The notes under the pieces are model-generated. The model had not been told where the DNA came from, made no database searches, and worked only from the letters and a program-made list of their open reading frames with translations. A program made the translations under genes and the position numbers. Positions 3,057 to 4,267 of a stretch of DNA of 64,000 nt are shown here, piece by piece; position 1 is the first letter of the stretch, and every line of letters starts with the position of its first letter. Source of the stretch: Eledone cirrhosa (lineage: Eukaryota); the NCBI GenBank assembly GCA_964016885.1, contig OZ024750.1, forward strand, positions 1,550,001-1,614,000, given 5' to 3'.

Positions 3057-4267
3057 GTGTCATTGACTTAGCATATTTATGTTTTAACTGAGTAATAAGC
3101 AACGTTATATTTCAGGGTGTAACGTCTTATAACGTTCGAATATAAGAGTATTAAGATTCATATCATGAATAATTCTTACAGAATAGATTCGTTTATTTCA
3201 ATTTGATCAGCAACGGAGCTTTTTTATTACTATATCATTGGATCAGTATATTTTATTAGGCATCCGATATTATTATGCACACAATCAACACACACACACG
3301 CATACACACACACGCAAGCACACACACACACACACACACACACACACACACACACACACACACACACACACACACACACACACACACACACACACACACA
3401 CACACACACACACACACACACACACACACACACACACACACATATATATATATATACATATATATTCATGTGTGTGTATATGTGCATGCTTGTGTGTGCG
3501 TATGATGTATATGAATAATATATACATATATTATTCATATATATCATACGCACACACAAGCACGCACATGTATATATATATATATATTGAATTGCATCAA
3601 TGTTTACCCTAATAAATATATATATATATATATATATATATATATATATATATATATATATATATATATATATATATGAAAGACGTAAAATAAGAAAATT
3701 ATGAAGATCAACTTACTTACTAAAATTTCACTCCAACTAATTAGTTTCTGTAAGGGAATAAATATGGTTACCGAACGGAACCATAGAGAATCCTTACGTC
3801 ATCAGGGAGTCTATTCTCAGCTAAGTTCCAAGGCAATGCGTGGACACAGGGAACTTATACAAAAATAATTCAGCTAGATAGAAGGTAATGATTGAATGGG
3901 GTCCTTGCATTTAACAAGCGATTAACAAAAATACAAAATTTGTTCTGTTCAATACGGCCAAAAACTTTCGTATTTAACAATTAATAAATACAAAAAATGT
4001 AAGATTGTTTTAGCGATAGATTGGCTATTTGGACTTGATACGAAATATGGATTGTTTTGAAAATACGCTAGAATTAGGATTTGTGGAGGTAGAGAGATGA
4101 ATGAAAATCTGTACATTACGTTACATGAATATCGTGGATAGACAGCAAAGCAATGAAATTTGGCGAATCTTAATACTCTTATATTCGAACGTTATAAGAC
4201 GTTACATCCAGAAATATAACGTTGCTTATTACTCAGTTAAAACATAAATATGCTAAGTCAATGACAC
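3057..4267. repeat. 103-bp inverted repeat pair (3057-3159 / 4165-4267)
   Basis: GTGTCATTGACTTAGC...TTAAGATTC and its reverse complement, with 2 mismatches by eye. Confidence 0.93.
3730..3810 (-). ncRNA. Minimal type I hammerhead ribozyme (Penelope-type)
   Basis: Minus strand reads ACUCC-CUGAUGA-c GUAAGG...CCUUAC a-GAAA-CUA AU UAG-UU-GGAGU. Helix I is 5 bp, helix II is long, helix III is palindromic. There is a C.A mismatch at the base of helix II. Confidence 0.75.

What the first reader, a model, noticed from the sequence alone, without database searches (positions are those of the whole stretch)
3730..3810. Hammerhead ribozyme with unusually long helix II and a 12-bp palindromic helix III
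Seen: complete CUGAUGA/GAAA/UH core; helix I ACUCC/GGAGU; helix II with GUAAGG/CCUUAC plus inner UAUGGUU/AACCAUA and CCG/CGG stems; AACUAAUUAGUU palindrome across helix III. Established: minimal type I hammerheads of Penelope-like elements have short palindromic helix III and can cleave as dimers. Caveats: GUU triplet and a C.A mismatch. Inference: it lies in sense orientation to the minus-strand gene starting at 28440 and could cut its pre-mRNA between 3735 and 3734 if transcription reaches here.
Basis: partly seen in the sequence, partly recalled or inferred. Interest (0 to 1): 0.72.

Follow-up and report, generated by a model that had tools for sequence, protein, structure and literature searches.

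The report
Hammerhead ribozyme in octopus retrozyme copy
The flagged stretch is an intact copy of a self-cutting "hammerhead" RNA motif carried by a very common non-coding jumping repeat of an octopus-like genome; it sits in the first intron of a gene, where on its own it would likely cut poorly, so it is a new member of a known kind of element, not a new gene switch.

Summary
The motif is real: a complete type I hammerhead on the minus strand, 3810..3730, with its predicted cut between 3735 and 3734. Rfam gives no hammerhead hit even at E<=10. It is not a locus-specific feature. Its 3' half occurs 9,628 times in this 3-Gb octopus-like genome, and the family-specific 30-mer 1,210 times (reversed controls 0). 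The carrier is a non-coding, AT-rich 528-bp unit that occurs solo, in tandem and as head-to-head inverted arms. Its 3' ends are fixed and abut (TA)n or (CT)n, and its 5' ends are scattered. This is the published insertion signature of Penelope-like elements, so the family fits animal non-LTR retrozymes. Across 88 distinct copies the core is kept and helix II covaries. The "long helix II" is a 6-7 bp stem, a nearly invariant internal loop and a variable distal hairpin. Folding favours a double hammerhead through the palindrome over the monomer. The window copy is a 5'-truncated single arm split by a later insertion. It lies in sense in the 162-kb intron 1 of a GARNL3-like gene, with no second sense copy in that intron. 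Cutting of the host RNA is possible but unsupported. The scan reported the same kind of element on other DNA of this genome. Verdict: new member of a known kind.

The parts
3730..3810 (-). Type I hammerhead motif: helix I 3810-3806/3734-3730; core CUGAUGA 3805-3799; helix II with its insert 3798-3749; GAA 3748-3746; palindromic helix III 3745-3736; U17 at 3735; predicted cut between 3735 and 3734
   Evidence: Sequence read. Core kept and helices paired across 88 distinct family copies.
3750..3797 (-). Extended helix II: outer 6-bp stem GUAAGG/CCUUAC; internal loop AUUCUC/UUUAUUC, nearly invariant in the family; distal hairpin UAUGGUU..AACCAUA, variable and covarying
   Evidence: Pairs with changes on both sides: columns 24/85, 27/82, 37/72, 39/70, 40/69 (GC 45, AU 37), 41/68 and 57/65.
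3736..3745 (-). ACUAAUUAGU, self-complementary helix III strand (positions 15.1 to 16.1): 3 bp plus an AAUU loop in a monomer, 10 bp between two copies
   Evidence: duplex energy -9.0 kcal/mol for the 10-mer and -10.8 for the 12-mer; the dimer minimum-energy fold uses it.
3673..3873 (-). 3' piece of the repeat copy (unit positions 1-201). It holds the hammerhead and ends at ..CGUCUUUCAUAUA, one of the family's two standard 3' ends.
   Evidence: 95.5% identity to reference unit L027:2006-2533; 31 of 72 arm ends fall at unit 199-204.
4281..4382 (-). 5' piece of the same repeat copy (unit positions 426-528); the 5' truncation point abuts (TA)n
   Evidence: 95.1% identity; sequence.
3874..4266 (-). 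Later nested insertion of an unrelated repeat that splits the copy. It is flanked by a 14-15 bp target duplication, CTGAATTATTTTTG(T), at 4280-4267 and 3873-3860.
   Evidence: sequence; 976 first-look candidates, with 92-99% identity over positions 100-393 of the insert.
3616..3672 (.). (TA)n microsatellite at the 3' end of the copy; a second (TA)n at about 4383-4424 flanks the 5' end
   Evidence: For the family, 54 of the 63 standard ends abut (TA)n or (CT)n/(GA)n.
28243..28440 (-). Exon 1 of the host gene (GARNL3-like): start codon at 28440, GT donor after 28243. The hammerhead lies 24.4 kb downstream in intron 1.

Best explanation
The stretch is an intact Penelope-type type I hammerhead carried by a 5'-truncated solo copy of an abundant 528-bp non-coding repeat, which was likely copied in by the reverse transcriptase of a Penelope-like element. 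Shown here: the motif, the copy numbers, the tandem and inverted architecture, the fixed 3' ends at microsatellites, the covariation, and the intronic position.

Inferred for the family: tandem copies are transcribed as multimers. Two hammerheads pair through the ACUAAUUAGU palindrome, with helix I strands swapped, to form a double hammerhead. Each cuts after GUU, and the unit-length RNA is likely ligated into a circle. A Penelope-like RT/GIY-YIG enzyme then nicks a (TA)n or (CT)n tract and starts cDNA synthesis inside the RNA, at unit positions about 201 or about 311-316. It runs round the template to give arms of up to 2.4 units, and often leaves a head-to-head inverted arm.

Inferred for this locus: the hammerhead is a passenger in intron 1 of a GARNL3-like gene and would cut weakly, if at all, as a monomer.
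For: Motif complete and not due to chance.

Repeat family: 2,262 first-look candidates, of which 40 were scored and all match at 92-100%. The 30-mer spanning the GAAA core, helix III, the cut site and helix I occurs 1,210 times and the 18-mer 9,628 times; reversed controls give 0.

Architecture: among the first 100 places on C1 there are 71 clusters, 48 of them single. Of neighbour pairs within 3 kb, 16 are head-to-head and 0 tail-to-tail. Of 13 same-strand pairs, 11 are spaced 511-539 bp.

The unit has no ORF longer than 77 aa and is 35% G+C.

In 40 loci taken in positional order, 63 of 72 arm 3' ends fall at unit 199-204 (31) or 303-321 (32). Of these 63, 54 abut (TA)n or (CT)n/(GA)n. The 66 internal 5' starts are scattered from unit 24 to 501, and arms cross the unit junction.

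These are the features published for Penelope-like element insertions: 5' truncation, partial tandems, an adjacent inverted 5'-truncated copy, a (TA)n bias, and the hammerhead near the 3' end (PMC8557442, passages).

Structure: 91.7% of cells are paired, against 28-48% with partners slid. Seven pairs change on both sides; 58 such cells are seen and 0 of 500 shuffles reach that number. Shared variants cluster in the distal helix II, while the core carries almost only singletons.

Dimer: the cofold minimum is the double hammerhead.

Helix I of 5 bp, helix II of 6-7 bp, an extra nucleotide after A9 and a small palindromic helix III all match the published Penelope-element hammerhead description (PMC4209133).

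GIY-YIG candidates are very numerous in the genome (10,597 at first look). One truncated RT plus GIY-YIG ORF lies beside a family array.
Against: No cleavage assay and no RNA data were available: no RNA run is listed, and the three runs laid are contigs of unknown kind.

No autonomous element with this hammerhead or this 3' end was found in the 30 best-scoring GIY-YIG loci or in 10 further long-ORF loci, out of 10,597 candidates.

Rfam models do not score the motif.

The C.A pair at the base of helix II and the GUU site may lower activity. The monomer's best fold is inactive by 2.5 kcal/mol.

The 40 C1 loci were chosen by an exact 30-mer, so invariance of GAAA, helix III and U17 in those copies is partly by construction. 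Copies are 78-100% alike, so part of the conservation reflects youth.

Arms longer than one unit fit uncut multimeric RNA as well as circles.
Confidence: 0.8

Rival explanations
1. Host-gene ribozyme: the intronic sense copy cleaves the GARNL3-like pre-mRNA, either alone or paired in trans with RNA from other family copies, and so tunes the gene's output.
For: It lies in sense orientation inside intron 1, 24.4 kb past exon 1. The core is intact. Helix III has 3 bp plus a tetraloop, more than the 1-2 bp of axolotl motifs that still cleave weakly as monomers (PMC7229834, passages). Thousands of loci carry the same palindrome and could supply a trans partner.
Against: It is one of thousands of repeat copies. 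It is a truncated arm split by a later insertion. No second sense copy exists in the 162-kb intron. The monomer's best fold is inactive. Penelope-element hammerheads show low activity in vitro even as dimers (PMC4209133). A cut inside an intron need not stop splicing (recalled from the exon-tethering literature, not checked here). Conservation of this insertion in other species could not be tested.
Confidence: 0.08
2. The 528-bp unit is not a separate non-autonomous element but the pseudo-LTR of an autonomous Penelope-like element, and the copies are solo or partial pLTRs.
For: Hammerheads sit in the pLTRs of canonical Penelope-like elements. The insertion signature is identical. Retrozymes and pLTRs are sister sequences in Xenopus (preprint 10.64898/2026.07.22.740005, Results read).
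Against: Arms cycle unit after unit with a 511-539 bp period and no ORF between them. None of the 70 family loci shows an RT ORF in phase with the unit. None of the 40 GIY-YIG loci examined has this hammerhead downstream of its ORF.
Confidence: 0.1
3. An ordinary satellite or segmental repeat spread at the DNA level, with the hammerhead-like motif a relic of no function.
For: Tandem arrays exist. No RNA evidence was available.
Against: Copies are dispersed over many chromosomes, with independent microsatellite flanks, fixed 3' ends and random 5' truncation. Compensatory changes in helix II, set against an unchanged core between subfamilies, indicate selection on the RNA fold in the lineages that spread.
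Confidence: 0.02

Closest known systems
Hammerheads of metazoan Penelope-like elements, the variants with a small palindromic helix III (Cervera and de la Pena 2014, PMC4209133; passages read)
   Same: Type I topology; helix I of 4-5 bp; a larger than usual helix II; an extra nucleotide between A9 and 10.1; a palindromic helix III that implies action as a dimer; massive copy number; association with the Penelope-type insertion architecture.
   Different: Here helix II goes on beyond 6-7 bp into a conserved internal loop and a further 7-10 bp hairpin, 47 nt between the flanking C and A. An A also stands between 11.1 and G12, so the base of helix II reads as a C.A pair. No RT/GIY-YIG ORF is attached to the unit.
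Animal non-LTR retrozymes (Cervera and de la Pena 2020, PMC7229834, passages; Li, Clavereau and Pollet 2026 preprint 10.64898/2026.07.22.740005, abstract and Results read)
   Same: Non-coding, AT-rich tandem units with one type I hammerhead each; monomers, dimers and multimers dispersed in the genome; dimer-dependent cleavage in the amphibian members; proposed mobilisation by Penelope-like elements. The 528-bp unit falls within the 51-972 bp range of the preprint's family consensus lengths.
   Different: The unit is longer than the roughly 300 bp typical of the coral, mussel and axolotl elements. Circular RNA was not shown here. The fixed internal 3' ends at microsatellites and the head-to-head arms are documented here copy by copy. 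I found no paper in the held library on retrozymes in cephalopods.
Double hammerhead of newt satellite 2 and viroid RNAs (Forster et al. 1988, as cited in PMC4209133 and PMC6765202; the paper itself not read)
   Same: A weak helix III within one molecule, and an extended helix III between two adjacent copies that gives two active sites.
   Different: The intermolecular helix here would be 10 bp. The monomer helix III is 3 bp plus a tetraloop, so it is more stable than in newt.
Conserved intronic hammerheads of amniotes (HH9/HH10; mentioned in PMC7229834 as having a role in mRNA biogenesis; details recalled)
   Same: A hammerhead in sense inside an intron of a protein-coding gene.
   Different: Those are single-copy, ultraconserved and active as monomers, with stable helices. 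This one is a young repeat copy, about 95% identical to a reference unit, with a dimer-type helix III.

Membership tests
Hammerhead ribozyme (type I) | Core nucleotides C3 U4 G5 A6 N7 G8 A9, G12 A13 A14, the A15.1-U16.1 pair, and H17 not G | tested here: met
   Core columns are kept in 83-88 of 88 copies. Related subfamilies have C at the free position N7.
Hammerhead ribozyme (type I) | Three helices around the core, supported by compensatory changes | tested here: met
   Helix II has 7 pairs with changes on both sides. Helix I is 97.5% paired, and a related subfamily has CUUUC/GGAAG with one added pair. Helix III never covaries, being nearly invariant.
Hammerhead ribozyme (type I) | Standard G10.1-C11.1 pair directly next to A9 and G12 | tested here: not met
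   C after A9 and A before G12 in 85 of 87 copies. The extra 5' nucleotide has a published precedent in Penelope-element hammerheads. I did not find the extra 3' A in the passages read.
Hammerhead ribozyme (type I) | Match to the Rfam hammerhead covariance models | tested here: not met
   No hit at gathering score nor at E<=10. The likely cause is the 47-nt helix II (inference).
Hammerhead ribozyme (type I) | Site-specific self-cleavage giving 5'-OH and 2',3'-cyclic phosphate ends | not testable with these tools
   No RNA run listed; only contigs of unknown kind could be laid.
Animal non-LTR retrozyme | Non-coding, low-GC tandem repeat unit with one type I hammerhead per unit | tested here: met
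   528-bp unit, longest ORF 77 aa, 35% G+C; period 511-539 bp. The window copy itself is a solo arm of 304 bp.
Animal non-LTR retrozyme | Expressed as unit-length linear and circular RNA | not testable with these tools
   No RNA holder listed.
Animal non-LTR retrozyme | Mobilised by Penelope-like elements: co-occurrence, and a shared end sequence with a pLTR | tested here: inconclusive
   The Penelope-type insertion signature is met (against PMC8557442). GIY-YIG candidates are abundant. No element sharing the hammerhead or the 3' end was found in 40 loci examined.
Autonomous Penelope-like element (pLTR) | RT plus GIY-YIG ORF between the repeats | tested here: not met
   No such ORF in the unit, in the window near the copy, or in phase with the unit in 70 family loci.

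The most novel reading that the evidence does not exclude
Abundant RNA from the thousands of family copies acts as the second half of a double hammerhead on solo copies embedded in host introns. The shared 10-nt palindrome and helix I strands would let transposon RNA guide cleavage of pre-mRNAs such as the GARNL3-like transcript in trans. The conserved internal loop and covarying distal hairpin of helix II would be a protein- or RT-binding module, not ribozyme scaffolding.
Probability: 0.05. Interest if true: 0.65.

Novelty: new member of a known kind. Interest (0 to 1): 0.3.

Why it matters
It places a large hammerhead-bearing retrozyme-like superfamily in an octopus-like genome: at least 9,628 copies of the ribozyme's 3' half. 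Two searches of the held library found no paper on cephalopod retrozymes.

It gives copy-by-copy evidence for a link between retrozymes and Penelope-like elements that a 2026 preprint argues from phylogeny: fixed internal 3' ends at (TA)n or (CT)n, scattered 5' ends, and exclusively head-to-head inverted arms.

It also shows that a helix II insert hides these motifs from Rfam, so standard annotation misses them. For the host gene it most likely means nothing.

Tried and rejected
Rfam scans: the whole window at gathering score and 3500-4100 at E<=10 gave no hammerhead. The only hits were low-scoring miRNA-like matches on (TA)n and (GT)n tracts, taken as artefacts of simple sequence.

RNA evidence: no RNA holder was listed. 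A shorter part beside it, as the tool advised, was laid. That showed only contigs of unknown kind, with very high summed word depth over the element and low depth on the unique flank. This says nothing about expression or RNA ends.

Search for the autonomous partner: the Pfam GIY-YIG family in the own genome gave 10,597 first-look candidates, of which 150 were scored. In the 30 loci returned, one (L088) holds a family copy, but on the opposite strand to the ORF. Ten loci with open frames of 502-1,096 aa, plus two family loci, showed other hammerhead types but not this one. The truncated RT/GIY-YIG ORF beside the L027 array shares no 3' end with the unit.

The scan's notebook, searched by sequence, gave no look-alike.

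Lunse, Weinberg and Breaker (PMC5785218) is not held, so its dimer data are cited only through the review PMC6765202.

Chance origin of the motif was rejected. The 8-mer CTAATTAG at 59077, 61320 and 63737 is not part of any hammerhead.

Full report
**Observation.** On the minus strand, 3810..3730, the window reads ACUCC-CUGAUGA-C-GUAAGG-AUUCUC-UAUGGUU-CCGUUCGGU-AACCAUA-UUUAUUC-CCUUAC-A-GAA-ACUAAUUAGU-U-GGAGU. This is a complete type I hammerhead.
- Helix I is open: ACUCC/GGAGU.
- Both core strands are present.
- The A15.1-U16.1 pair is present.
- U stands at position 17.

A gapped pattern for the motif matches once in the window and in none of 100 shuffles. The 12-nt palindrome is real, but its outer A and U are core A14 and U17. 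Helix III is therefore 10 bp at most between two molecules, or 3 bp with an AAUU loop within one. Rfam has no match at gathering score in the window and no hammerhead match at E<=10 around the site.

**It is a repeat.**
- A 151-nt query found 2,262 first-look candidates in the 3.0-Gb genome. The 40 scored match at 92-100%.
- The exact 30-mer from the 3' strand of helix II to helix I occurs 1,210 times, and the 18-mer GAAACUAAUUAGUUGGAG 9,628 times. Reversed controls give none.
- The first 100 places of the 30-mer on contig C1 form 71 clusters, 48 of them single.
- All 16 opposite-strand neighbour pairs within 3 kb are head-to-head and none tail-to-tail.
- Of 13 same-strand pairs, 11 are 511-539 bp apart; the other two are multiples of that period.
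- A natural unit (L027:2006-2533, 528 bp) has 35% G+C and no open frame above 77 aa, even when read as a dimer.

**How copies were inserted.** I took the first 40 clusters on C1 in positional order and mapped them to the unit.
- Of 72 arm 3' ends, 31 lie at unit 199-204 (..UUUCAUAUA), 32 at 303-321 (..ACUAAUUCU) and 9 elsewhere.
- Of the 63 standard ends, 54 abut (TA)n or (CT)n/(GA)n.
- The 66 internal 5' starts are scattered from unit 24 to 501.
- Arms run through the unit junction for up to 2.4 units.
- Most insertions are two arms joined head to head.

This is the published picture of Penelope-like element insertions: strong 5' truncation, partial tandems, an inverted 5'-truncated copy at the 5' side, a microsatellite and especially (TA)n bias, and the hammerhead near the 3' end (PMC8557442, passages). 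The DNA 3' ends lie 62 and about 175 nt past the cut site. cDNA synthesis therefore starts inside the RNA, not at a ribozyme-made end. Arms longer than a unit need a multimeric or circular template.

**The window copy.**
- Unit 426-528 lies at 4382-4281 and unit 1-201 at 3873-3673. Both are on the minus strand at 95% identity.
- The two pieces are separated by a 393-bp insertion of another repeat, flanked by a 14-15 bp target duplication.
- (TA)n flanks both outer ends.
- It is thus a single 5'-truncated arm of 304 bp, later hit by a second element, with one intact hammerhead.

**Is the fold under selection?** I aligned 88 distinct copies from the 70 family loci, at 78-100% identity, and counted the pairs of the stated structure.
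- 91.7% of cells form standard pairs, against 28-48% when partners are slid by 1-3 columns.
- Seven pairs change on both sides. 58 such cells are seen, and 0 of 500 shuffles reach that number.
- All seven pairs are in helix II. Examples are G-C 45 against A-U 37 at one pair, and U-A against C-G or G-C at others.
- Shared variants cluster in the distal hairpin.
- The core and the internal loop AUUCUC/UUUAUUC are almost invariant.
- A more distant family has GAAAUG/CAUUUC and a UUCG-capped distal stem, but the same C..A flank, internal loop and palindrome.

One caution applies. The 40 C1 loci were picked by an exact 30-mer, so invariance of the 3' core there is partly by construction. The 5' core and helix II were not selected on.

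The "unusually long helix II" therefore reads as three parts: a Penelope-type stem of 6-7 bp, a conserved internal loop that may stand in for loop 2 (inference), and a variable hairpin. The C.A pair is a family trait, present in 85 of 87 copies. An extra nucleotide after A9 is described for Penelope-element hammerheads, as are a 4-5 bp helix I, a larger helix II and a palindromic helix III (PMC4209133).

**Monomer or dimer.**
- The monomer's minimum-energy fold (-22.5 kcal/mol, z = -2.0) pairs CUGAU of the core with AUUAG of helix III.
- The active fold is 2.5 kcal/mol worse.
- Two copies cofold at -54.6 kcal/mol, against -45.0 for two monomers. The result is exactly a double hammerhead: a 12-bp intermolecular palindrome, swapped helix I strands and both cores open.

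This agrees with the literature view that such motifs act in pairs and cleave poorly alone. These are energy predictions, not assays.

**Host gene.**
- The ATG at 28440 opens a 66-aa exon with a GT donor. It is 97% identical to the start of Octopus sinensis GTPase-activating Rap/Ran-GAP domain-like protein 3.
- No other exon of that protein is in the window. Exon 2 lies at C10:1416156-1416317.
- The hammerhead is therefore in sense in a 161.9-kb intron 1.
- Scanning that whole intron (162,242 nt, 200 of them masked) finds no other sense copy. There is a tandem pair of a related family on the opposite strand, 127 kb away.
- A cis dimer is thus not available. A cut in trans or as a weak monomer cannot be excluded.
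- In Xenopus about 44% of retrozyme copies are intronic, somewhat fewer than expected (preprint), so an intronic copy is ordinary.

**Partner.** GIY-YIG candidates are very numerous (10,597 at first look). A truncated RT plus GIY-YIG ORF with a C-x4-C-x2-C linker lies beside one family array. None of the 40 GIY-YIG loci examined carries this hammerhead or this 3' end. The partner remains open.

**Comparison and verdict.** The element behaves like an animal non-LTR retrozyme (PMC7229834; preprint 10.64898/2026.07.22.740005), and its ribozyme like the Penelope-element hammerheads with a small palindromic helix III. RNA circles and cleavage are untested. The scan's earlier notes describe the same kind of element on other DNA of this genome, including one with the same C.A, GUU and palindrome traits. 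My counts agree with them. I found no paper in the held library on cephalopod retrozymes. The finding is a new member of a known kind. The host-gene reading is unsupported.

Noticed in passing
window 3874-4266: A 393-bp insertion with a 14-15 bp target duplication splits the retrozyme copy. Its last 294 bp belong to another repeat family (976 first-look candidates), which forms a long array with a period of about 550 bp at C3:196.087-196.105 Mb.
   Followed up: partly
G000:C10:1426790-1427453 (loci L114/L115), same intron, opposite strand: A tandem pair of a related hammerhead family (80-84% identity to the unit). It has CUGACGA, outer stem GAAAUG/CAUUUC and a UUCG-capped 8-bp distal stem, but the same C..A flank, internal loop and CUAAUUAG palindrome.
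   Followed up: partly
L113:515-1840: A 5'-truncated Penelope-like ORF of 441 aa: YLDD reverse-transcriptase motif, a C-x4-C-x2-C linker, and GIY-YIG above the Pfam cut-off. It lies about 330 bp past the (TA)n that ends a three-unit retrozyme array and is flanked by its own inverted arms. No hammerhead was seen after its stop codon.
   Followed up: partly
window 3786-3791 and 3756-3762: The internal loop of helix II (AUUCUC/UUUAUUC) is nearly invariant across 88 copies while the stems on both sides covary. It may be a tertiary-contact or protein-binding site.
   Followed up: no
window 3799-3805 with 3737-3741: In the monomer's minimum-energy fold the core CUGAU pairs with AUUAG of the palindrome. 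This self-inhibited form is released in the dimer.
   Followed up: partly
L027:930-1340: Two adjacent copies of a unit of about 190 bp that looks tRNA-derived (SINE-like) lie just upstream of the retrozyme insertion. I did not run tRNA or repeat tools on it.
   Followed up: no
window 3500-3690, 4383-4440, 4980-5220 and many other places: The window is dense in (TA)n, (GT)n and (CT)n microsatellites. Low-scoring Rfam miRNA matches and long ORFs there are artefacts of simple sequence.
   Followed up: no
L101, L106, L110 (near long RT/GIY-YIG ORFs): A different, compact hammerhead-like motif (helix I AGAUUC/GAAUCU, a non-palindromic helix III, GUA site) recurs near Penelope-like ORFs. It probably belongs to another element family.
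   Followed up: no
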